A stretch of 64,000 bases of DNA from an uncultured Fibrobacteraceae bacterium (GCA_964384055.1 CAYLIV010000008.1:25166-89165), one strand, 5' to 3'. Shown: positions 12,216-34,131, numbered from the stretch's first letter. The notes: a model not told the origin generated them from the letters alone. Made by a program: numbers and translations.

Positions 12216-12567
12216 CGGCCCCCCCTTTTTCGGGTTACAGTTTCACGAAACACCAGTTATTGGCTCTCTCTAATGAGCATTTTGTACCCTAATTTTACCA
12301 CAAAAACGCTGGCGACTCAAAGACAAGCACCGCTAAATCGTAGTGAGGGTTTATTTTAAGAGAGTTTTAGTCTTGTTTAACGGCGCACGGCATACTTGCC
12401 GGCGCGGCACACGATCGATTCCCGAGACAGGTCGTGCCCTCGCTGCCGTTCTGTGGAAGAATCGAACGGCAACCGCGAGAAAACCTCAACGCTCGAACCG
12501 CCGGACCGGTATCACCCTGTAGACAGCGGGAGCCGGAGATCGGCGTATTCAGACACGGGATCTACAG

Positions 12568-13163
12568 TGAACGAGGATCGGGAACTCATCCGGCGCGCGC
12601 AGTACGGAGACGATCAGGCTTTCGCCGCGATCGTTTCGACGTACCAGCGAAGGATCGTCTCGATCGCGCTGCGGCTGCTCGGCAACCGGGACGACGCCCT
12701 CGATGTCGCCCAGGAGGTGTTCATCCGTTTGCACCGTTACTTGCCACAATACGACCGGCGCCGGCCGTTCTTCACCTGGCTCTACCGCATCGTGGTCAAT
12801 GTCTGCCACGATCAGCTGCGCAATGCGCGCCCGTGGCGCGACGCGGTGCCGCTTGGTGAGGTTCCGCCGGGGGATCTGCCGCGGTGCCCTCCCCCGGACC
12901 ACGCCGGTGGGGAGATCGGCGGGCGGGTGCGGGAGTTGACTGCGCGGCTGAGCGACACCCAGCGTCTGGTTTTCTTGTTGCGCGAGATGGAAGGGTTTTC
13001 CTGCGGACACATCGCGCAGACGATGGATCTGCCCGAGGGCACGGTTCGCAGCCACCTGCACCACGCCCGCAAGAAACTGAGCACCCTGCTGGCGAAGCAC
13101 TACCCTGAACTGATCGAGGGCCTGCACGCCGGCCGCAGCAAGGACAGAACCGATGCACTGTAA
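12568..13163 (+). CDS. RNA polymerase ECF sigma factor (sigma-70 family)
   Basis: Sigma-70 region 2 (DVAQEVFIRLHRYLPQYDRRRPFFTWLYRIVVNVCHD) and region 4 (LSDTQRLVFLLREMEGFSCGHIAQTMDLPEGTVRSHLHHARKKL). A GTG start at 12568 is proposed; the ORF-track N-terminus at 12396 is non-sigma-like. Confidence 0.8.
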
Positions 13164-25322: not shown

Positions 25323-25488
25323 TTCTTCCCGCCGATCCAGCTGCACCATCGAGACTGATTATTCATATTTTTGCAGTATTCTCACACCTTTAGACAACCC
25401 TTCGCCAATCCTACGCTCGTCTTCAGGCATCGCCTGCTGGAATACCGTTAGATAAACCCCGTTGACACCTGCAACAGGGGACGGAATC

Positions 25489-28287
25489 GTGGCGGAGACA
25501 GAGCAACAATTCGGCGCGGAATCGAGGTCCCACGGCTGCCGGTCAGCCAGCTCCCTCCATCCTTGGCTGTCCGGTAGCCGTTGCTTGCTGGCGCTCATCG
25601 CCTGGTGTGCCTGCGCTCCGATACCTGTCCGCGCCGCGACACCCGCCGGCGTCGCACCAGAGCGAAACGTTCCCGACGGGGTGCACGTGACCGACGGCTC
25701 GTTTGTCCTGACCGCCGGCCAGCTACAGGTAAACATCTCCAACTTCGGCATGATCGGCTCCCGCTATTCGACATTGTCGGACTATTCCCATGCACCCTCG
25801 GCGCAGTGGCCCGGCGGCTCGGGCAACGAATATCTCTACTGTGCCGGCTTGTGGATCGGCGCCGTTCAGCTTGGCGAGACGCTCTGCTCGACCGGGCAGT
25901 TCGAAAGGGAACTCCGCCCCCGGCCCGGGCTGGAGGCGACCATGTACGAATCGATGGACGGCAAGGTCACACGACCCCTGGCCAATCCGCAGACCACCGG
26001 TCGCCGGCATCCTTCGGCGGAAGCCGACGACGACGACGATGAGCGAGTCGACGAGGAGATTCTCAACGGGCTCGACGACGATACCGACGGCGCTGTCGAC
26101 GAAGACATCGGCCAGATCGGCAACCAGATGATCGTGTGTACCATGTACGACAACACCCGGGTCGCCGCCGAGGAGTATCCGGATCACAACCCGTTGAATC
26201 TCGAGATCGTCCAGCGGGCCATCGCCTGGGAGAGCCCGGAAGCGGAAAATTTCGTCGGCTTCCAGTTCGACATCACCAACGTCGGCGTTATCGACCTGAA
26301 CGACGTCTACATCGGCCTCTTCGCCGATTGCGACATCGGGCCACGCGGCGTTCCCGGCGCTTTTCAGGACGACATGGCCGGTTTTTACGAGGGTATCGTG
26401 CGAGCCCGGAACGGCAGCTACGTGAGCATCTCGGTCGGGTACATGTACGACGCCGCGGAGCAGGACGCGCTGCCCGGATACATCGGTGTCCTCTTCCTCG
26501 GCGATCCCTTCGATCCCGGGGGCAGGATACGCTCCTTCCAGTCCTTTTCGCAGCAACAGCCTTTCTTGGACGGTGGCGACCCGACGAGCGATGACGAACG
26601 CTACATCCTGCTGAGCGCCGAGGAACACGATCGCAATACGCCCGAAGGCCGCCAGAACGACTTTCGTTTCCTGGTCTCGGCCGGTCCCTATACCAGTCTC
26701 ACGCCGCACCAGACGATCCGCTTCAACGCCGCCCTGGTAGTCGGTGACGGCTTCGACGGTATGTTGCAGGTCTGCGCCGAAGCAGCACAGACCTTCGCCG
26801 GCAGCTTCTTCGACGTGGACAACGACCCGCTGACGGGCGTCGCCGGCCGGGAGACCAAGCTCTGCGTCGAAGACCTACCTACGCTGGATGACGGCACGAG
26901 CTGGCTCTACAACCAGGTGGCCGCCTCCATGGACCGGACCTGCGTGGGCATGAGCACGGATTTCATCACGCCCGACGACCTGTTCATCGACGCGAGCGGC
27001 AAGCATTGCGTCTACGTGAACATGGACAACTGCTTCGAATGCGAACGGATCACCGGCGAACCGTGCACCGTGGAAAACGGCCTGTTCGCAGCGCGCTGGA
27101 ACTGTGACGACGGGGTCGCCACCGAGGAGGAACTGGTCAGTTGCACTGGCGTACTCGGCAAGGAGACCAACGTCGACTGGATCGTGTCCATGGCGCCACC
27201 GCCACCGGCGATGCGGCTGTGGCCGCGCAACAACGCCGTGCACATCTACTGGAACGATTTGAGTGAGCACAGCCCGGATCTGCGCCACAACGAGATAGAT
27301 TTCGAGTCCTATCGACTCTGGCGGGCCGACAACTGGGATCGGCCATTCGGCAGCTCCCTGGAAAACGGTCCGCAGGCCACGCTGTGGGACCTGATCGCCG
27401 AGTTCGACCTGGTCAGCCACTACTGGCGCGAACTGGACGTCGGTGACAACACCGTGCGGTTGGATTCACTGGCCCTGGGTTCCAACACCGGTTTCGACGG
27501 CATCCGCTACACCCCCGCTTGCCTATTCGACGCCCGCTTCGCCGGACTCGAAGAAGCGATGCAGGATGTCGTCGACGCCGACGTCCATAACCGATACCGG
27601 CAACTGCCGCCGCTGCGGCAATCCGACGGTACCCCGAACGCCGACCTGGTCGGCCTGCTCTATTGGGAGAGCTATCCGGCGGTGCTGGACACGTTCTTCT
27701 GGACCACGCAACGAGACGCCGATCCGGTCAACGACGTGATCGGTAAGCGTGCGGTCGGCTTCTACGAATACGTGGACCACGATGTTCACAACGGGTTCCT
27801 CTACTTCTACTCGATCGTCGCTACCGATCATCAACTCGATTTCCACGACGGTGCTCCGCTGGTGTCCGGCGCCGGGCAGGCCGGTTCGCCGAACAACGCC
27901 TTTGCCTGGGTGAGCCCGGCCCCGGCTGCCCAGTCGGCCGACGAACGCAAGGCGTGCGGTTCGAACATCTACGTGTATCCCAATCCGGCCACGCGGCAGT
28001 CGCTGGCCGAGTTCCAGCAACTGCACCCCAACGAGGACGATCCCACGGGAGTGCGGGTCGTGTTTGCCAACCTGCCGGAGGCGACCAACACGATCCGTAT
28101 CTTCACGCTTGCCGGGGATCTGATCGAGAGAATCGAACACGACGGATCGGTAGGATACGGCCAGACGTCCTGGAATCTGGTCAGTAACAATGGTCAGGAG
28201 ATCGTCAGCGGCGTCTACCTCTACGCGGTGGAGTCCGCGGATACGCGATTCGAGGACCATATCGGAAAGTTCGTGGTGATCAGGTAG
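25489..28287 (+). CDS. large secreted protein of unknown function with T9SS-type C-terminal sorting domain
   Basis: GTG at 25489 with RBS aggggacgg (the ORF track starts at TTG 25462). Signal-like CLLALIAWCACAPIPVRAA. Poly-acidic stretch EADDDDDERVDEEILNGLDDDTDGAVDED. C-terminal YVYPNPA...SGVYLYAV...VVIR resembles a T9SS CTD. Confidence 0.6.
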   Translation: MAETEQQFGAESRSHGCRSASSLHPWLSGSRCLLALIAWCACAPIPVRAATPAGVAPERNVPDGVHVTDGSFVLTAGQLQVNISNFGMIGSRYSTLSDYSHAPSAQWPGGSGNEYLYCAGLWIGAVQLGETLCSTGQFERELRPRPGLEATMYESMDGKVTRPLANPQTTGRRHPSAEADDDDDERVDEEILNGLDDDTDGAVDEDIGQIGNQMIVCTMYDNTRVAAEEYPDHNPLNLEIVQRAIAWESPEAENFVGFQFDITNVGVIDLNDVYIGLFADCDIGPRGVPGAFQDDMAGFYEGIVRARNGSYVSISVGYMYDAAEQDALPGYIGVLFLGDPFDPGGRIRSFQSFSQQQPFLDGGDPTSDDERYILLSAEEHDRNTPEGRQNDFRFLVSAGPYTSLTPHQTIRFNAALVVGDGFDGMLQVCAEAAQTFAGSFFDVDNDPLTGVAGRETKLCVEDLPTLDDGTSWLYNQVAASMDRTCVGMSTDFITPDDLFIDASGKHCVYVNMDNCFECERITGEPCTVENGLFAARWNCDDGVATEEELVSCTGVLGKETNVDWIVSMAPPPPAMRLWPRNNAVHIYWNDLSEHSPDLRHNEIDFESYRLWRADNWDRPFGSSLENGPQATLWDLIAEFDLVSHYWRELDVGDNTVRLDSLALGSNTGFDGIRYTPACLFDARFAGLEEAMQDVVDADVHNRYRQLPPLRQSDGTPNADLVGLLYWESYPAVLDTFFWTTQRDADPVNDVIGKRAVGFYEYVDHDVHNGFLYFYSIVATDHQLDFHDGAPLVSGAGQAGSPNNAFAWVSPAPAAQSADERKACGSNIYVYPNPATRQSLAEFQQLHPNEDDPTGVRVVFANLPEATNTIRIFTLAGDLIERIEHDGSVGYGQTSWNLVSNNGQEIVSGVYLYAVESADTRFEDHIGKFVVIR

Positions 28288-28378
28288 CTTTCCCCCCAGT
28301 CAGCGACCCGTCACCAAACAGCAGGGTCCCCCATTCCGGCGGGAGGGGGATCCTGTGTTTCCAGTCTGATTCGTGCTC

Positions 28379-29191
28379 TCAGCGCGAGGTGAGTATCTCC
28401 TCGAACAGATCCAGCACACGCGGGCTCTCCGACTCGGCCAGCCAGAACAGAGCCGACCGACGTAGTTGCGGATGCCGGCTCTCGAGCGCAATTCGCGACA
28501 GCGCGTCGAAGCGCCGCCCGCTGTCACGATTGTGCAGCGCGAAGATGGCCGCCTCGCGGAGCTGGAGTTCCTCGTCGTCGTCGTCGACCAGCGCTGCGAG
28601 CCCGGCGGTGACCTTGTCGCCGACCTGCTGACCGAGCCAGAATACCGCCGAGCTGCGCACTTCGTCGTCGAGCTGCCGGTCGCGAGCGATTTCCAGCAGT
28701 TCGGGCCAGACGACCACATCGCGCGCCAGCGTGGCGGGCAGTATGCAATCCTCGGCGACCGAACGCCGCGCCTCACGGGTCAACCGCAGCAGATAGTCGG
28801 CCGCCGCTTGTGGTTCCACTTCGCCGAGGTCGAGAACGTCGCCCCGGGCCCGACGCCACTGCCCGGCGACCCAGTAGCGGATCTTGTTCACCCTACCGTC
28901 GCGTACCCGCATCGAGATTCGTACCGGACCTTCCTCGCAGTCTTCCCGCCAATCGTTCTCATCGTCGTCGCAGCTGATGTAGTGGGTGCCGTGGATGCGC
29001 GTCAACGAACCGTCGACGACGATTATCGAGCCGCCGTCGCCGAAGACGCCGTCACGCGACGCGAATTCGAAACGCACCTCGCCGGACTCGAAATCGGCTA
29101 TCTGCTGGGCCAGGTCGCTCGCCTGCGCCAAGCCCGTCCCGGCGACGGCCAGTAGAACGACCAGTGTCACGTGCCTTCCCGGTTTGTACAT
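28379..29191 (-). CDS. secreted HEAT/PBS-lyase-repeat protein
   Basis: Signal peptide LVVLLAVAGTGLAQA. Repeated VRSSAVFWLGQ / LREAAIFALHN / LRRSALFWLAE HEAT-like units. Confidence 0.7.
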   Translation of the reverse strand: MYKPGRHVTLVVLLAVAGTGLAQASDLAQQIADFESGEVRFEFASRDGVFGDGGSIIVVDGSLTRIHGTHYISCDDDENDWREDCEEGPVRISMRVRDGRVNKIRYWVAGQWRRARGDVLDLGEVEPQAAADYLLRLTREARRSVAEDCILPATLARDVVVWPELLEIARDRQLDDEVRSSAVFWLGQQVGDKVTAGLAALVDDDDEELQLREAAIFALHNRDSGRRFDALSRIALESRHPQLRRSALFWLAESESPRVLDLFEEILTSR

Positions 29192-29203
29192 GCCGTCGCC
29201 TCC

Positions 29204-30547
29204 TTATTCCTCGATGATCTCCAGCAGTACCGCTTCCGCCTCCGGATCGTCGAACTGCCCGATCCAGAAAACCGCGTTCGAGCGTAATTCGGTGTCGCGC
29301 TCGTTGCGCACGATCTTCACCAGCTCGTGCAACGCCTCCTTGCCGCCACGGTTGGAGAGCAGGAAGATCACCTGCTCTTTCATTTCCCGGTCGGCGCCCT
29401 CATAGAACGCCATGATCTGCGCGATGGGCAGGTCGTGATTCTGACCGAGCCAGAACAGCGCCGTCTTGCGCAGCTCGATGTCCTCGTCCTCGTCGCCGGC
29501 GATACGCACCAACCACTCGCCGGCGTCATCGTGATCGGATTCGGAGATCGAGAACAGCACGTTTTCCCGCAGGTCCGCGTCGAGGTCGTCATACAGTTGC
29601 ATCAGGAACTCGATCTCGCTGCGCCCGCCGCGCTGGCCGATCCAGAAGATGGCGTTCTCGCGCACTTCTTCGGGTTGGTTGCGGTCGCGCGCCACGTCGC
29701 GTAGAATTTCGGCGGCGCGGTCGCTGTCGTGTTCCTGCAAGGCGAACAGCGCGTTCGTGCGTTCCTCGTCGTCTTCCGCGGTGGTGACGACCTCTTCGAG
29801 TATGGCAAGCGTCTCGTCGCCCGGAACCTGCGAGAGCCAGAAGATGGCGTTCTGCCGGACTTTAGGGTCGGGATCGTTGCGGTAGACTTCCAGCAAGGTG
29901 TCGGCCACCTCGTCGGTTTCGCCGTGCTCGGCCAGCAGGAAAACGGCCTGGCAGCGTAGCTCGGCACTGCTGTCCGTCTGCGTCAAGACCTTCTGCAGCA
30001 ACGGCACGGCGCGGTCCGACTTCATGTTCAGCAACGCTTGCAGCGTGGCCATCTTGAGTTCCTCGTCATGCTGGGTTTCGTGTTCGGCCGCGCGGGCGAC
30101 CCGCTCCGCCGCGTCGGCGTCGCCGCGCCTGGCGAGTTCACCCCGCAGGCGAGTCGCCAGATCCCGGGCTTCGTCTCGCATGGCCGCCTCGGGGAACCTT
30201 TCGCGCCGCAGTTCGAGCGCTTCGAGCGCCCGCCGCAGGTACTTGGATCGGTCCAGCCGATACAGCGCGAAGGCGCGCCAGTAGAGCGCATCGGCCGCGT
30301 AACGCGAGGATTCGTACTCCTCGTACACGTTCCGGAAGCGAGTGGCCGCCCGGCGGTACTCGTCCTCGTTGAGGGCCTGTCGTGCCTGTTCGTACAGTTC
30401 CTGCGCCAGCACATTTTCGTCGCTCTCCTGGGCCCGCCCGGTGCAGGCACCGCCCAGGGAGACGACCAAGATGATCAGCGTCAACCAGCATGCAGTCTGG
30501 AAACGGTGTGTCGTGCTTCCTCTGTCGTACATTTTCTTCCTCCTCAC
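29204..30547 (-). CDS. HEAT/PBS-lyase-repeat protein (paralogue of the downstream gene), N-terminal signal/anchor plus TPR-like segment
   Basis: At least 6 repeats of the [VL]R.NA[IV]FW[IL][GS]Q motif. Overlaps the upstream anti-sigma gene by 4 nt. Confidence 0.7.
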   Translation of the reverse strand: MRRKKMYDRGSTTHRFQTACWLTLIILVVSLGGACTGRAQESDENVLAQELYEQARQALNEDEYRRAATRFRNVYEEYESSRYAADALYWRAFALYRLDRSKYLRRALEALELRRERFPEAAMRDEARDLATRLRGELARRGDADAAERVARAAEHETQHDEELKMATLQALLNMKSDRAVPLLQKVLTQTDSSAELRCQAVFLLAEHGETDEVADTLLEVYRNDPDPKVRQNAIFWLSQVPGDETLAILEEVVTTAEDDEERTNALFALQEHDSDRAAEILRDVARDRNQPEEVRENAIFWIGQRGGRSEIEFLMQLYDDLDADLRENVLFSISESDHDDAGEWLVRIAGDEDEDIELRKTALFWLGQNHDLPIAQIMAFYEGADREMKEQVIFLLSNRGGKEALHELVKIVRNERDTELRSNAVFWIGQFDDPEAEAVLLEIIEE

Positions 30548-31290
30548 AGTCCGGCCACGGGTGCGCCGGCGGGGATGCTGTCGCGCAACCGGGGCAAGAT
30601 GGCGCGCTTGTCGAGACCTTTTTCGATCCAGTCCCGGTCGGTGTCGTGTGCTTCGCTCGTCACGGAGATGATCTGGGTGAGTACCAGTTCCAGGTCGGTC
30701 AACAAACGTCCGAGCCGCGGATCGTCGGCAGCCGGTGAATCGAGCAGCAGACGGGTTCGCGTGAGCAGATCGCCGGCGCGCTCGGCATAGGTCGGCGTCG
30801 CGACGCCGTCACCTCGGGTGAAACGGTACTCGGTCAGCAGCGCTTCGGCGCGCCCGAACAACGGCGCGGCGGCGAACTGGAAGATCGCGGAGCCGTCGTC
30901 CGCCCGCCGCGGCCGCCGGCGTTCGGTTTCACTCGCCACCGGGTGATCTGCGCGTTCGGGCACGACGACCGCTGCCGGGTCGGACGTGGCACCGGACATG
31001 GTGGCGACATCGCCGGCAGGTCGCAGCGGCATGGTCCAGCGGCCGATGACGATCCCGATCAGCAACACCGCAGCCGCCGCGACTGGCCACCAGAAACGGC
31101 GCGACCGCCAGAAGCCGGAGTGCGCAAGCGCAGCTCTTCGTCCACCGCGGGTACGTCGCTCGTCTGCTGCGCGGGTCGCCGTACGTTCCGCCGCGATACG
31201 CGTCCACAGGCGTTCGCGAGGTGTCGGTGGCGGCAGGTTGTACGCCTGCAGCGCGTCTTCGTAGTGCTTATCTGGTTTCGCGTCGTTCAT
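30544..31290 (-). CDS. anti-sigma factor (single-pass membrane protein; cytoplasmic N-domain, periplasmic C-domain)
   Basis: Immediately follows and overlaps the ECF sigma gene. Start taken at MNDAKPDKHY (ATG 31290). TM helix WWPVAAAAVLLIGIVIG. The ORF-track upstream extension is rejected. Confidence 0.55.
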   Translation of the reverse strand: MNDAKPDKHYEDALQAYNLPPPTPRERLWTRIAAERTATRAADERRTRGGRRAALAHSGFWRSRRFWWPVAAAAVLLIGIVIGRWTMPLRPAGDVATMSGATSDPAAVVVPERADHPVASETERRRPRRADDGSAIFQFAAAPLFGRAEALLTEYRFTRGDGVATPTYAERAGDLLTRTRLLLDSPAADDPRLGRLLTDLELVLTQIISVTSEAHDTDRDWIEKGLDKRAILPRLRDSIPAGAPVAGL

Positions 31291-31849
31291 GACCTCGCCT
31301 CTCGGCCTCGTCCGGACGGAGTCCGCCCAGCGCCTCGCGCAGCCGCCGCCGCGCCCGCGACAACCGCGATTTTGTCGTTCCCGCCGGTACGTCGAGTATC
31401 TCCGCGATCTCTCGATGCCGGAAACCCTCGATATCGTGCAGGACGAACACCAGCCGCAGATCATCGGGTAGCTCGTCGATTGCCGCGTGGATCCATCGTT
31501 TCAGATCCAGATCGCGAAAGGTGCCCAGCCGCGCCGCCCCACCCGCGCCGCCCAACAGCTCGAGATCGATCTCGCGCGAGCGGATGCGGGTGATCTTGCG
31601 CAGGCCGTTGATCACCACGGTAACAGCGATGGCGTGCAGCCAGGTCGAGAGCGCCGACCGACCCTCGAAACGGTCCATGGCGCCATAGGCACGTATGAAT
31701 GTCTCCTGGGTGAAATCCTCGGCCATGGTCTCGTCGCCGGTCATGCGATACGCCAGCCGGAAAATCCGGTCGACGTGAGATTCGAAGAAAGCCCGCTCGG
31801 CAGCGGGATCGCCCTTCAGAATGCCACGTATCATCTGGTGTTGTCGCAC
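31268..31849 (-). CDS. RNA polymerase ECF sigma factor
   Basis: RBS aggag 6 nt before GTG at 31849. Region 2 (FTQETFIRAYGAMDRFEGRSALSTWLHAIAVTVVIN) and region 4 (DLRLVFVLHDIEGFRHREIAEILDVPAGTTKSRLSRARRRL). Confidence 0.8.
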   Translation of the reverse strand: MRQHQMIRGILKGDPAAERAFFESHVDRIFRLAYRMTGDETMAEDFTQETFIRAYGAMDRFEGRSALSTWLHAIAVTVVINGLRKITRIRSREIDLELLGGAGGAARLGTFRDLDLKRWIHAAIDELPDDLRLVFVLHDIEGFRHREIAEILDVPAGTTKSRLSRARRRLREALGGLRPDEAERRGHERRETR

Positions 31850-31887
31850 ATTCGGCTCCTGGATCGCATCGCGTCACTCGCTGTATC

Positions 31888-31925
31888 GATCAATGAGACA
31901 CTGGCCACAGGCGGATGGTTCACGG
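31888..31925 (-). promoter_or_regulatory. putative ECF-type autoregulatory promoter (-35 TGAACC, 16-nt spacer, -10 TGTCTC) upstream of the sigma gene
   Basis: The minus-strand sequence gtGAACCatccgcctgtggccagTGTCTCatt lies ~40 nt upstream of the start codon. It resembles the GGAAC-N16-GTCT consensus of RpoE-like ECF sigma factors. Confidence 0.3.
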
Positions 31926-32196
31926 CGTTACGCAAAAATCCGCTGACCGGTCGAATATTTCTTTTCGGGCCAGGCACCTGCGGCGAGAAAAACCGGGCAA
32001 CGGGTCGCGCGAACGTTACTTTTTCTGCAACAATCGACCAGCGCATGCGTAAATCTCTCCATCTACAGAATGCACGGAAGTACGCAATAGCCGTACATTG
32101 AAGAACGGCCGGGCCATTTTCCTGAACCAGATGGGATCCCCCTTGCTCATCTGGTTGGTCCGGCCAAAATATTTGGCCTCCGGTCAACCGTTCGGC

Positions 32197-32236
32197 ACAA
32201 AAAGAAGACGGCCACGGCGAGTGACCGTCTTCTTTT
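32197..32236 (-). terminator. rho-independent terminator downstream of the C1 peptidase gene
   Basis: Stem aaaagaagacgg/ccgtcttctttt with a 13-nt loop, followed on the minus strand by TTTTGTG; 20 nt after the stop at 32257. Confidence 0.5.
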
Positions 32237-32256: not shown

Positions 32257-33552
32257 TCAGGGCAACAATCCCTGCATGCGATCCTTGTGCACCAGGAAGC
32301 CGAGCATCTTCAGCTTGATGAAGTCGCCGTCGAAGAAGTAGATCCCCTCGAAACGGCCCAGCCGGCTGCTGCGGTTGCTGTCCTTGATCAGGAACCAGTC
32401 GCGGCCGCCGTAGCGCGTGAACCCGACGACGTGGACCCCGTGATCGTCGGTGGTCGTGCCGTTGACGATGCGTAGTTCACGGCTGGCCTGATTGATGTGC
32501 TCGGAGGGAATGTCCCAGCTGGGAATGATCGCCGCGTCCTGTTTGCCGTCGCGGCCGGGTTCGCTGACGTCACCGCCGATGACCACCGAGTAGCCGTCCT
32601 GCACGGCATCCTTGATGACCCGGTAGAACTCGACCAGGGGCAGGTTGTAGTAATCCGTCTTGCGCCGCCAATTGTCCGGTACGTCGAGCAGCACCCAGGT
32701 GTGGAACGGTTCGTCGAGCCGCGAGACGCAGCTGACGTAATCGTCGAGCTCGAGGCGCAGAACCTCGGCCAGGAAAGCCCGTGGATCGTAGGTCGCGCCG
32801 TCCCACTCGACGGTTTCCGGCGGCCGGCCGAGGTGCTTGTCGAGGATCGAACGGACCACGAGTAGATTCTGCGACTCGTCCCAGGTCTTGGTCTCGCGCA
32901 CCCATTCGAGATACCCCTTGAGCTCCTTCATGAGCGGCGCGTGGTCGTGCCAGCCGTTGCGGTTCAACACGCCGGGGTAGGCCGCCGCCGGCACCGCACC
33001 GTACAGCTTGAAGACCTCGAGCGTGCCGTGGTCCTGGCCTCCCTGCGCGACCAGCGAGTGGCCGTACTCGCGCAGATATCGCCGGGCTTTCTCCACGTAT
33101 TCCCAGTAGACGACCCACATCTCCGAGAGCTTGCACTGCACGTCCTGCAGGCGATTGGCTTCGGATTCCAGGAAGGAAACCGAGCAGAAGGCCCAGCAGC
33201 TTCCGGTGTAGTACTGGGCCACCGGCGGTGTGTGCCAGATCTGCTCGAACGCTTCGGGACCGGTCGGCACGTCCACGTCGGACCAGTCGATCCGCAGCTC
33301 GCGCTTCGTGTCGTCGGCCGCTCGCTGCTGCTCGGCATACCGGGCGTCGACGAGCCCCTGCAGAGAATCGCGCTCGGCCTGCCGCTCGTCGCGGTCGTCC
33401 TTGATCGCCTCCAGAATCGGGTATTCGTACTCGGGGACGTAGACCGGATCGTCCTCGCGCTCGGCGGCGCTCGCATCCGGCGCCGGCGTGAAGGCGAACA
33501 GACAGGCGAGCACAGTGGCGATGACCGCCGACTTCGTGTTGGGCAAACCCAT
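32257..33552 (-). CDS. papain-like cysteine peptidase (C1 family), secreted
   Basis: RBS gaggagg before ATG at 33552. Signal peptide MGLPNTKSAVIATVLACLFAFTPAPDASA. Catalytic Cys context QYYTGSCWAFCSVSFLES. His in DHGVHVVGF. The ORF-track N-terminal 193 codons belong to another gene or frame. Confidence 0.75.
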   Translation of the reverse strand: MGLPNTKSAVIATVLACLFAFTPAPDASAAEREDDPVYVPEYEYPILEAIKDDRDERQAERDSLQGLVDARYAEQQRAADDTKRELRIDWSDVDVPTGPEAFEQIWHTPPVAQYYTGSCWAFCSVSFLESEANRLQDVQCKLSEMWVVYWEYVEKARRYLREYGHSLVAQGGQDHGTLEVFKLYGAVPAAAYPGVLNRNGWHDHAPLMKELKGYLEWVRETKTWDESQNLLVVRSILDKHLGRPPETVEWDGATYDPRAFLAEVLRLELDDYVSCVSRLDEPFHTWVLLDVPDNWRRKTDYYNLPLVEFYRVIKDAVQDGYSVVIGGDVSEPGRDGKQDAAIIPSWDIPSEHINQASRELRIVNGTTTDDHGVHVVGFTRYGGRDWFLIKDSNRSSRLGRFEGIYFFDGDFIKLKMLGFLVHKDRMQGLLP

Positions 33553-33596
33553 GAAAACCTCCTCGGCGCCTGGTACCAGCGCGCCAGCCGACGGCG

Positions 33597-34131
33597 TCAG
33601 AACCTGATGACCGAACCCAGTCCGATCAACGACAGGACAAACGCCGCCAGGGTGAAAACGACCCAGCCGATCAGGCAAACCAGAATGGCTCTGCCGGTAC
33701 TCTCGTAGTCCAGCGCCTGGCGGACCGCGATGACCATCGCCACCAGCATCCAGCAATTGGCGACCACGAAGATGAAGAAGCCGATGAGAGGAATGAAAGA
33801 GAAGAGCCGAATCACACCCGGTGCCGCGCTGAATCCAACCGTGCGCAGCACCTGACCCAGGTCCGCTTGCGTGCGGGCGCCGGGCAAGAACCGCGTACCC
33901 ACGAAGAAAATGGTCAGCGACCAGATCAGCCAGCCGACCAACGCCGCCACCGTGCCGCCGATCAGACCGAGCACGCCCCCGGATATGGCGCCGCCGATGC
34001 CGGCGGCGACGCTGGAAAGCGCAACCACGGCCGCAGCCTGGCCGGTCGCCGTCGGCATCGGCCTCCACCTCCTCGTAGAGCAGGGGATCGAGCTTCGCGG
34101 CTCTCATCATCCGGTCGACCAGTTGTGACAT
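33597..34131 (-). pseudogene. Yip1-like multi-pass membrane protein, apparently split by a frameshift near 34058-34070 (or a sequencing error)
   Basis: Frame A from ATG 34131 encodes a Yip1-family-like N-terminus MSQLVDRMMRAAKLDPLLYEEVEAD, then degenerates into Arg-rich sequence. Frame B from ATG 34058 encodes 153 aa with 5 TM helices and high GC3 through to the stop at 33597. Confidence 0.4.

What the first reader, a model, noticed from the sequence alone, without database searches (positions are those of the whole stretch)
28379..31925. ECF sigma / anti-sigma pair co-transcribed with two paralogous secreted HEAT-repeat proteins
Four minus-strand genes overlap by 4-23 nt: sigma, anti-sigma, HEAT-A and HEAT-B. 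Both HEAT proteins carry N-terminal signal/anchor sequences and many copies of an unusually regular [VL]R.NA[IV]FW[IL][GS]Q unit (PBS-lyase-type HEAT). HEAT-A also has a TPR-like head. A sequence resembling an ECF autoregulatory promoter (TGAACC-N16-TGTCTC) lies ~40 nt upstream of the sigma gene. Envelope stress modules normally control chaperones, proteases or transporters. A dedicated ECF module driving periplasmic alpha-solenoid scaffold proteins is not a described arrangement, and it suggests a stress-induced periplasmic binding or scaffolding function.
Basis: partly seen in the sequence, partly recalled or inferred. Interest (0 to 1): 0.5.

Follow-up and report, generated by a model that had tools for sequence, protein, structure and literature searches.

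The report
Gemmatimonadota ECF sigma cassette with HEAT sensors
This is a self-activating four-gene stress-signalling unit (sigma factor, membrane anti-sigma factor and two exported HEAT-repeat proteins) that is conserved in hundreds of Gemmatimonadota species, has not been studied experimentally, and whose HEAT proteins look more like the unit's periplasmic sensors than like its products.

Summary
Window 28379-31922 (minus strand) carries, in order:
- a promoter, AACC-N16-TGTC
- an ECF sigma gene
- a single-pass anti-sigma gene
- HEAT-A (signal peptide, TPR-like head, 8 HEAT repeats)
- HEAT-B (signal peptide, beta domain, 3 HEAT repeats)

Only the sigma/anti-sigma junction clearly overlaps.

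The cassette recurs in at least 320 species genomes, mostly Gemmatimonadota, and the flanking genes are unrelated from genome to genome. In 80 loci fetched with the anti-sigma:
- sigma lies upstream in 74/74
- HEAT-A follows in 68/70
- HEAT-B follows in 53/57
- the promoter, with an exact 16-nt spacer, is present in 70/75 (0.4 expected by shuffling)

This supports autoregulation and co-conservation.

New findings:
- The anti-sigma has a short two-helix cytoplasmic part and a conserved periplasmic four-helix bundle. No Pfam family covers it.
- The HEAT-B module also occurs, in tandem, as the extracytoplasmic C-terminal region of two BlaR1-type M56 proteins encoded next to BlaI repressors.

I therefore favour the HEAT proteins as the periplasmic sensing partners of the anti-sigma (RseB/CnrX/ExoR-like logic). 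The signal is unknown, and I found no paper describing this arrangement.

Verdict: a new variant of a known kind, of moderate interest.

The parts
31895..31922 (-). ECF-type autoregulatory promoter. -35 TGAACC is at 31922-31917, followed by a 16-nt spacer, and -10 TGTCTC is at 31900-31895.
   Evidence: Sequence. The family PWM scores it 17.7 bits, and the next best site in the window scores 8.9. AAC[CG]-N16-TGTC is present 35-67 nt upstream of sigma in 70/75 loci, against 0.38 in shuffles. Held-out loci also have it.
31268..31849 (-). ECF sigma factor, 193 aa, GTG start. An alternative ATG at 31834 would give 188 aa.
   Evidence: Pfam Sigma70_r2, Sigma70_r4_2 and Sigma70_ECF. TIGR02937 sigma70-ECF scores 98 bits against a cut-off of 42.9. 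The closest solved relatives are Mtb SigE/SigH, B. subtilis SigW and E. coli RpoE, at about 78-89 bits.
30544..31290 (-). Single-pass anti-sigma factor, 248 aa. Its start overlaps the end of the sigma gene by 23 nt.
   Evidence: It lies immediately downstream of sigma in 74/74 loci. A 4-nt or 1-nt overlap is seen in 65/78 loci. 40/46 family members hit NCBIfam NF052375 'anti-sigma factor' below its cut-off. No Pfam family matches.
31093..31290 (-). Cytoplasmic part of the anti-sigma (aa 1-66). It has two predicted helices and the conserved motif YNxPPxTPRxxxWxRI. This is the presumed sigma-binding segment and is class II-like.
   Evidence: Alignment A2. AF2 predicts helices at aa 6-18 and 24-59. 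No zf-HC2 match.
31033..31092 (-). Transmembrane helix of the anti-sigma (aa 67-86).
   Evidence: AF2 helix at aa 67-86. Conserved AAAAVLLxGIxIGR.
30577..30897 (-). Periplasmic four-helix bundle of the anti-sigma (aa 132-238). It holds the most conserved motifs of the protein, TRLLLDSPAADDP and DLELVL. A disordered linker of variable length (aa 87-130) precedes it.
29204..30532 (-). HEAT-A, 442 aa. Signal peptide aa 1-34 (30431-30532), BamD/YbgF-like TPR head about aa 40-135 (30128-30415), and 8 HEAT repeats aa 160-442 (29207-30055).
   Evidence: Pfam HEAT_2 4.1e-43 and YfiO 3e-04. NCBIfam YbgF 6.8e-11. Family consensus. More than 2000 homologues. It follows the anti-sigma in 68/70 loci.
28379..29191 (-). 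HEAT-B, 270 aa. Signal peptide aa 1-24 (29120-29191), beta domain aa 36-124 (28820-29086), and a helical region aa 127-268 (28388-28813) that contains 3 HEAT repeats.
   Evidence: AF2 pLDDT 86. HEAT_2 6.3e-07. Family alignment A1 shows invariant FW pairs and a Cys pair, 39/50 and 46/50. HEAT-B is downstream in 53/57 loci. The module occurs as the C-terminal region of M56 proteins.
28316..28360 (-). Possible terminator hairpin shared with the convergent gene 25462-28287. The evidence is weak.
   Evidence: The fold shows CAGGAUCCCCC...GGGGGACCCUG followed by UGUUU. It is not significant against shuffles and was not flagged by the scan.

Best explanation
The region is a self-contained, positively autoregulated ECF signalling cassette that is characteristic of Gemmatimonadota.

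Shown.
- One ECF-type promoter (AACC-N16-TGTC) precedes four tightly packed genes: sigma, anti-sigma, HEAT-A and HEAT-B.
- The four genes travel together across hundreds of species, while the flanking genes do not.
- Both HEAT proteins have export signals.

Predicted from models.
- The anti-sigma has a short two-helix cytoplasmic segment, one transmembrane helix, a disordered linker and a periplasmic four-helix bundle.

Inferred mechanism.
- At rest, the anti-sigma holds sigma at the membrane.
- HEAT-A and HEAT-B are periplasmic alpha-solenoid binding proteins that act as the sensing partners of the anti-sigma's four-helix bundle.
- When they bind, or lose, an envelope-derived ligand or protein, the state of the anti-sigma changes. 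It is then probably exposed to regulated proteolysis.
- Sigma is released and transcribes its own operon. This replenishes all four components. In some lineages it also transcribes extra targets, such as CBM9/DUF5916 outer-membrane proteins.

On this view the HEAT proteins play the role that RseB plays for RseA, CnrX for CnrY, or ExoR for ExoS. They are not the end product of the response.
For: Cassette and autoregulation.
- Synteny is 74/74 for sigma, 68/70 for HEAT-A and 53/57 for HEAT-B in loci fetched with the anti-sigma.
- Sampling from the HEAT-A side gives 6/6.
- No other neighbouring gene family is conserved in more than 16 of 83 loci.
- The promoter is conserved with an exact 16-nt spacer in 70/75 loci. 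PWM information content is 25 bits, and held-out loci are also positive.
- The motif fits the ECF hallmarks of AAC at -35, co-transcription with the anti-sigma and positive autoregulation (PMC8103513).

Sensor reading.
(1) The HEAT-B module is a full-length match to my HEAT-B HMM (iE 3.9e-32 and 1.4e-35). It occurs twice in tandem as the region C-terminal to the last transmembrane helix of two BlaR1-type Peptidase_M56 proteins, P0368 and P0500. Each is encoded right after a BlaI-type Penicillinase_R repressor. In BlaR1/MecR1 that position is the extracellular sensor domain (PMC7593790).
(2) The best-conserved part of the anti-sigma is its periplasmic bundle, which has no recognisable ligand-binding family.
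(3) The repeats are of the PBS-HEAT/alphaRep type, a protein-binding scaffold.
(4) In well-studied ECF operons, non-enzymatic periplasmic proteins encoded with sigma and anti-sigma are regulators. RseB binds the periplasmic domain of RseA (PMC8103513). CseA is another example (PMC8999054).
(5) Promoter-like sites in front of CBM9_1+DUF5916 genes in L014 and L021 show that the regulon need not end with the HEAT genes.

Export.
- N-terminal hydrophobic segments are found across both families.
- A conserved Cys pair is present in HEAT-B.
Against: - There is no direct evidence that either HEAT protein touches the anti-sigma. A complex could not be modelled with the tools available.
- The M56 fusions are only 2 of 356 cluster representatives, and they concern HEAT-B only. 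No fusion evidence exists for HEAT-A.
- In L021, HEAT-B has its own sigma-type promoter. This shows it is a regulated target, which fits the effector reading equally well.
- 4 of 57 loci lack HEAT-B nearby and 2 of 70 lack HEAT-A, so the partnership is not absolute at the locus level.
- The signal is unknown.
- Export rests on heuristics, because SignalP was not available.
- The anti-sigma function is inferred from position, topology and sub-threshold family hits only.
Confidence: 0.5

Rival explanations
1. Effector reading. The sigma/anti-sigma pair senses the signal on its own through the four-helix bundle. HEAT-A and HEAT-B are the induced output. They would be periplasmic scaffolds or chaperone-like binders that protect or organise envelope components. 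This would be analogous to effectors co-transcribed with sigV-rsiV (oatA) in Bacillus subtilis.
For: - The HEAT genes sit in the sigma-dependent operon.
- In L021 the displaced HEAT-B keeps a 21-bit copy of the promoter.
- No other target site was found in the 64-kb window.
- The HEAT-A head resembles BamD, YbgF and YfgM, which are periplasmic TPRs of envelope-biogenesis machines.
- The sigV-oatA precedent is from my own knowledge and was not checked here.
Against: - A response whose only universal product is two non-enzymatic binding proteins would be unusual.
- The HEAT-B module is used at the sensor position of BlaR1-type transducers.
- The periplasmic domain of the anti-sigma has no evident ligand pocket family.
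Confidence: 0.33
2. Cell-surface (trans-envelope) signalling. The HEAT proteins bridge an outer-membrane protein, such as the CBM9/DUF5916 barrel, to the anti-sigma. They would report on an extracellular polysaccharide or surface state, as FecA-FecR-FecI or the Bacteroides SusC-linked anti-sigma systems do.
For: - In two Longimicrobiales loci (L014, L021), a CBM9_1+DUF5916 gene with a promoter-like AACC-N16-TGTC site follows HEAT-A where HEAT-B is missing.
- The TPR head resembles TolA- and BamD-type interaction modules.
Against: - Only 2 of 83 loci show this.
- There is no DUF5916 gene or second promoter site near the window cassette.
- There is no TonB-box or FecR-type domain in the anti-sigma.
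Confidence: 0.1
3. The adjacency has no functional meaning. The HEAT genes merely lie downstream of an ordinary sigma/anti-sigma pair, and the promoter resemblance is chance.
For: None beyond the generic nature of HEAT repeats and of short bipartite motifs.
Against: - The four genes are linked in dozens of species with unrelated flanking genes.
- The promoter is present in 70/75 loci against 0.38 in shuffles.
- The gene junctions are tight.
Confidence: 0.02

Closest known systems
E. coli rpoE-rseA-rseB-rseC (sigmaE envelope stress operon)
   Same: - It is an autoregulated ECF operon.
- It has a single-pass anti-sigma.
- A periplasmic non-enzymatic protein, RseB, is encoded in the same operon, binds the periplasmic domain of the anti-sigma and gates its proteolysis (PMC8103513).
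- The sigma here is a moderate sequence relative of RpoE.
   Different: - RseA has a four-helix class I anti-sigma domain. Here only two cytoplasmic helices are predicted.
- RseB is a beta-rich protein (from my own knowledge), not an alpha-solenoid.
- Here there are two accessory proteins with HEAT repeats.
- Here the anti-sigma ends in a four-helix bundle.
- No Pfam RseB/MucB hit was found.
Cupriavidus metallidurans CnrY-CnrX-CnrH
   Same: - It has a short two-helix (class II) anti-sigma that wraps the sigma (PMC7406223).
- A separate periplasmic sensor protein is encoded in the same operon and signals through the anti-sigma (from my own knowledge).
   Different: - CnrX is a small membrane-anchored helical metal sensor, and CnrY has almost no periplasmic domain.
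- The gene order differs.
- Only 1 of 46 family members gives a weak hit to the CnrY/NccY model, at 0.0035.
BlaI-BlaR1 / MecI-MecR1 (M56 sensor-protease with repressor)
   Same: The HEAT-B module occurs in tandem at the C-terminal extracytoplasmic position of two M56 proteins encoded next to BlaI-type repressors. In BlaR1 that position carries the sensor (PMC7593790).
   Different: - The window has no M56 protease and no BlaI.
- Here the module is a free exported protein in an ECF operon.
- The classical BlaR1 sensor is a penicillin-binding domain, not HEAT.
ExoR-ExoS/ChvI of Sinorhizobium (periplasmic Sel1-repeat regulator of a sensor kinase)
   Same: It is a precedent for a periplasmic alpha-solenoid protein acting as the regulatory partner of a membrane sensor. 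This is from my own knowledge. Only the reference is listed in PMC7593790.
   Different: It is a two-component system, not an ECF system. It uses Sel1/TPR-type repeats, not PBS-type HEAT repeats. There is no sequence relationship.
PBS-lyase HEAT-like repeat proteins (CpcE/CpcF, NblB, YibA; artificial alphaRep binders)
   Same: The repeat fold and sequence family are the same. Pfam HEAT_2 and HEAT_PBS match. The best structural matches are alphaRep, CpcE/F and YibA.
   Different: - Those are cytoplasmic (from my own knowledge), and some are lyases.
- These are exported.
- These carry an invariant FW signature in alternate repeats.
- These are joined to a TPR-like head or to a beta domain.

Membership tests
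ECF (group IV) sigma-70 factors | Only sigma2 and sigma4 domains, joined by a short linker | tested here: met
   Sigma70_r2 covers aa 21-88 and Sigma70_r4_2 covers aa 118-170 of 193 aa. TIGR02937 scores 98.2 bits against a cut-off of 42.9.
ECF (group IV) sigma-70 factors | [quoted passage not shown] | tested here: met
   The anti-sigma is downstream in 74/74 loci, mostly with a 4-nt overlap. AACC-N16-TGTC is present in 70/75 loci. The -10 element reads GTGTC rather than CGT. Transcription itself was not tested.
A named ECF group of the Casas-Pastor 2021 classification | Score against the group HMMs, and the described genomic context | not testable with these tools
   The group HMMs and Supplementary Text S2 are not held. 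All NCBIfam equivalog hits are far below their cut-offs.
Class I anti-sigma domain (RseA, RsiW, ChrR; zf-HC2) | A cytoplasmic domain of about 100 aa with four helices, often carrying Hx3Cx2C | tested here: not met
   0 of 46 members hit PF13490 or any other Pfam family. Only two cytoplasmic helices are predicted within about 60 aa. There is no Cys/His motif.
Class II anti-sigma domain (CnrY/NepR type) | A short sigma-binding segment (<50 aa) of two helices | tested here: inconclusive
   There are two predicted helices, and the conserved core spans about aa 8-40. 1 of 46 members gives a weak hit to NF033790 CnrY_NccY. No complex model was made and no sequence membership was shown.
PBS-lyase type HEAT repeat proteins (PF13646/PF03130) | Tandem helix-turn-helix repeats of about 31 aa that match the family profiles above cut-off | tested here: met
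   HEAT-A scores 146 bits on HEAT_2 and 54 bits on HEAT_PBS. HEAT-B scores 30 and 21.9 bits. All four scores are above their cut-offs. The structure matches alphaRep and CpcE/F.
BamD/YfiO or YbgF(CpoB) TPR proteins | A profile match above the curated cut-off | tested here: not met
   PF13525 scores 21 bits against a cut-off of 25. TIGR02795 scores 42.8 against 90.1. TIGR03302 scores 38.6 against 81.4. The head is TPR-like only.
RseB/MucB periplasmic anti-sigma regulators | Sequence or fold membership in the family | tested here: not met
Sec-exported periplasmic proteins | A cleavable N-terminal signal peptide | tested here: inconclusive
   A hydrophobic N-terminal segment preceded by K/R is found in 112/120 and 95/120 homologues, together with AXA-like sites. 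A lipobox is rare. There is a conserved Cys pair, and the module occupies the extracytoplasmic position in M56 fusions. SignalP and LipoP were not available.

The most novel reading that the evidence does not exclude
HEAT-A and HEAT-B form a periplasmic alpha-solenoid receptor that docks on the four-helix bundle of a minimal (class II-like) anti-sigma and gates its proteolysis. This would be a new type of ECF input module. Its sensing unit (beta domain plus FW-type HEAT repeats) is interchangeable between ECF anti-sigma systems and BlaR1-type protease-repressor systems. It may be the main envelope-surveillance pathway of the phylum Gemmatimonadota.
Probability: 0.35. Interest if true: 0.65.

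Novelty: new variant of a known kind. Interest (0 to 1): 0.5.

Why it matters
Gemmatimonadota are abundant in soils and sediments, yet almost nothing is known about how they sense their envelope or surroundings. This cassette appears to be single-copy, is conserved across the phylum and is easy to recognise. Its promoter is sharply defined, so the regulon can be predicted genome by genome and tested in a heterologous host.

If the HEAT proteins are the sensors, this would add an alpha-solenoid receptor to the short list of known ECF input mechanisms. It would also show that one extracytoplasmic sensing module is shared between anti-sigma systems and BlaR1-type systems. The orthogonal sigma/anti-sigma/promoter set could also be useful as a synthetic-biology part.

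Tried and rejected
- A profile of the anti-sigma against PDB sequences found nothing.
- Pfam on all 46 anti-sigma family members found nothing meaningful.
- The afdb50 library was not available.
- Rfam on the whole window found no matches.
- The sigma-70 promoter and terminator scan of the operon found no promoter, and terminator-like sites were at chance level.
- The hairpin after HEAT-B is not significant against shuffles.
- Clustering of neighbouring genes gave only clade-specific housekeeping neighbours: upp, NUDIX, DUF218, holA, a TMEM260-like gene and a second sigma. I therefore dropped the idea of a larger conserved locus.
- I considered HEAT-A as a lipoprotein because of LGGAC in the window protein. 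I rejected this as a family feature, because only 7/120 homologues have a lipobox.
- Assignment to a named ECF group failed because the classification's supplement is not held.
- Seven literature searches found no description of an ECF/anti-sigma/HEAT operon or of HEAT-type BlaR1 sensors.
- The taxon of the window's organism was not determined. Its cassette is about equally distant from all the fetched loci (sigma 50-62% identity, the other three proteins 36-50%), and there is no shared flanking synteny.

Full report
**What is in the window**

On the minus strand of 28379-31922 there are four closely spaced genes behind one promoter-like site.
- Sigma (31268-31849, 193 aa) has only sigma2 and sigma4 domains and passes the ECF superfamily model. 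Its nearest solved relatives are Mtb SigE/SigH, B. subtilis SigW and E. coli RpoE.
- The next gene (30544-31290, 248 aa) starts 23 nt before the sigma stop codon.
- HEAT-A most likely starts at the ATG at 30532, which is preceded by AGGAGG.
- HEAT-B (28379-29191) follows after a 12-nt gap with its own GGAGG.

'Overlap by 4-23 nt' is therefore true for only one junction, or possibly two. The genes are nonetheless packed as an operon. The upstream C1-peptidase gene ends with a hairpin and a T-run that I read by eye as a terminator, at about 32199-32234. The automatic scan did not flag it. The intergenic space holds no Rfam family.

**The proteins**

HEAT-A (442 aa) has three parts:
- an N-terminal hydrophobic signal sequence
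- a TPR-like head that gives sub-threshold hits to BamD/YfiO and YbgF
- eight HEAT repeats that alternate between an FW[LI][GS]Q form and an F[AL]LS[QE] form, a pattern conserved across the family

HEAT-B (270 aa) has three parts:
- a classical signal peptide (AQA|SD)
- a beta domain of about 90 residues (AF2 pLDDT 86) with the conserved motifs GVCGDG and CxxGPVR, which form a Cys pair present in 39/50 and 46/50 homologues
- a helical region containing three HEAT repeats of the same FW type

The two proteins are related only in the repeat region.

The 248-aa protein matches no Pfam family. However, 40 of 46 family members give sub-threshold hits to NCBIfam's 'anti-sigma factor' model NF052375. 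The AF2 model shows:
- two cytoplasmic helices (aa 6-18 and 24-59) carrying the conserved YNxPPxTPRxxxWxRI
- a transmembrane helix (aa 67-86)
- a disordered linker of very variable length
- a confident four-helix bundle (aa 132-238) that carries the most conserved sequence of the protein, TRLLLDSPAADDP and DLELVL

**Is the arrangement conserved?**

Yes, strongly.
- HEAT-A has more than 2000 homologues at E below 1e-10, mostly labelled Gemmatimonadota.
- The anti-sigma and HEAT-B families each gave about 200 hits in the word-limited search.
- A scan of one genome per species with the anti-sigma alignment found 320 genomes with a relative, and I examined 80 loci. Eleven loci have an extra, longer HEAT-B-like gene in between.
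- Starting instead from HEAT-A, 6 of 6 sampled loci show the same four genes.
- Nothing else around the cassette is conserved in more than 16 of 83 loci, and those neighbours are clade-specific housekeeping genes.
- The sigma/anti-sigma junction is a 4-nt or 1-nt overlap in 65 of 78 loci.
- A few loci are labelled Krumholzibacteriia or Fibrobacteraceae.

The window's own lineage was not determined. Its cassette is about equally distant from all the others.

**The promoter**

- AAC[CG]-N16-TGTC, always with a 16-nt spacer, lies 35-67 nt upstream of the estimated sigma start in 70 of 75 loci. Shuffles give 0.38, and equally wide control windows give 0-4.
- The 38-nt PWM has 25 bits of information. 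Its consensus is CgnAACCcTTT...GTGTCAnA.
- In the 64-kb window, only the site at 31889-31926 scores well (17.7 bits, next best 8.9).
- Loci not used to build the matrix each have one strong site just upstream of sigma.
- This fits the classical ECF hallmarks of AAC at -35, co-transcription with the anti-sigma and positive autoregulation (PMC8103513).

In 938 kb of related loci there are only four further sites of at least 14 bits.
- One (21 bits) lies in front of a HEAT-B gene that in L021 has moved to the opposite strand. This is a natural experiment showing that HEAT-B stays under this promoter type.
- Two lie in front of CBM9_1+DUF5916 outer-membrane protein genes. These follow HEAT-A in two Longimicrobiales loci, L014 and L021; neither has HEAT-B downstream of HEAT-A.
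- One precedes a second sigma gene.

**What do the HEAT proteins do?**

The data allow that, but three things point elsewhere.
- First, the anti-sigma's own periplasmic domain is a conserved, featureless helical bundle. This is the kind of surface that binds a protein partner.
- Second, the HEAT repeats belong to the PBS/alphaRep type, a protein-binding scaffold.
- Third, and most telling, is a full search of 1.84 billion cluster representatives with the HEAT-B beta domain. It found 356 relatives, almost all with HEAT-B architecture. Two exceptions, P0368 and P0500, are BlaR1-type M56 proteins.

In those two proteins the region after the last transmembrane helix consists of two complete HEAT-B modules in tandem. 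My HEAT-B HMM gives iE 3.9e-32 and 1.4e-35 and covers 16-261 of 264 positions. Both are encoded immediately after a BlaI-type repressor. In BlaR1/MecR1 the C-terminal extracellular domain is the sensor that controls the cytoplasmic protease (PMC7593790).

So the same module sits where the signal enters in a second, unrelated transmembrane transcription-control system. This supports two conclusions: the module is extracytoplasmic, and it has an input role. I therefore favour the HEAT proteins as periplasmic sensing partners of the anti-sigma. They would be analogous in logic, though not in fold, to RseB with RseA, CnrX with CnrY, or the periplasmic Sel1-repeat protein ExoR with ExoS. As members of the autoregulated operon they are induced as well, which keeps the stoichiometry of the module.

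**Limits**

- No interaction has been modelled or measured.
- The fusions are rare and concern HEAT-B only.
- The signal is unknown.
- Export rests on heuristics, the Cys pair and the fusion topology.
- The ECF group could not be assigned, because the classification's supplement is not held.
- Searches of the held literature found no description of an ECF/anti-sigma/HEAT operon or of HEAT-type BlaR1 sensors. This is absence of evidence within that library only.

**Verdict**

Autoregulated co-transcription and export are supported. The scaffold-as-output part is not.
- This is a new variant of a known kind: an ECF sigma/anti-sigma module with a previously undescribed accessory pair and a previously undescribed anti-sigma family, conserved across a poorly studied phylum.
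- Interest is 0.5.

Noticed in passing
window 33597-34131 (-): A Yip1-family membrane protein gene looks frameshifted. Its N-terminus (MSQLVDRMMRAAKLDPLLYEEVEAD) is in the frame of the long ORF 32257-34131. The membrane body (MPTATGQAAAVVALSS...) is ORF 33597-34058, in another frame. The switch lies near 34045-34060. This is either an assembly error or a pseudogene.
   Followed up: partly
window 12396-13163 (+): There is a second ECF-type sigma gene in the window. It scores 64.8 bits against an HMM built from the cassette sigma. It has no AACC-N16-TGTC site.
   Followed up: no
L009, L015, L017, L019, L022, L024, L030, L033, L039, L041, L050, L063, L070, L071, L076, L093 (about 1.3 kb downstream of HEAT-B): In many Gemmatimonadales, the cassette is followed by DUF218 and NUDIX genes. 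After these come a second ECF sigma and a Cys-rich (zf-HC2-like) putative anti-sigma. In L066, a weak PWM site (15.7 bits) precedes a second sigma.
   Followed up: partly
L014 9437-12212 (+); L021 8600-10317 (+): CBM9_1+DUF5916 outer-membrane protein genes follow HEAT-A and carry promoter-like AACC-N16-TGTC sites (14.4 and 14.6 bits). Both are Longimicrobiales loci. L014 has no HEAT-B nearby; in L021 HEAT-B has moved to the opposite strand. These genes are candidate extra regulon members.
   Followed up: partly
P0368 (1034 aa), P0500 (926 aa); locus L094 860-4043: These are BlaI/BlaR1-type pairs. In each, the C-terminal extracytoplasmic region of the M56 protein is two tandem HEAT-B modules rather than a penicillin-binding domain.
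   Followed up: yes
P0205 (266 aa): The periplasmic four-helix bundle of this anti-sigma family is joined here to a zf-HC2 (class I, HxxxCxxC) N-terminus. The bundle therefore seems to be a module that can combine with different sigma-binding domains. The contig is too short to show the context.
   Followed up: partly
window 28379-29191 (-), HEAT-B aa 50, 74, 85: The window's HEAT-B has Phe in place of the family's usual Cys in GVCGDG (Cys in 39/50). It has an extra Cys74 in the variable loop, which could pair with the conserved Cys85.
   Followed up: partly
window 25462-28287 (+): This 941-aa ORF is convergent with HEAT-B and has no Pfam hit. By eye, its C-terminus resembles a T9SS/FlgD-Ig-type sorting domain. 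That is from memory and was not tested.
   Followed up: no
L084-L086 and 13 Gemmatimonadaceae loci (e.g. L053 4843-7068, -): A TMEM260-like (DUF2723-type) membrane protein gene of about 740-755 aa lies convergent to the cassette, directly after HEAT-B, in one clade.
   Followed up: no
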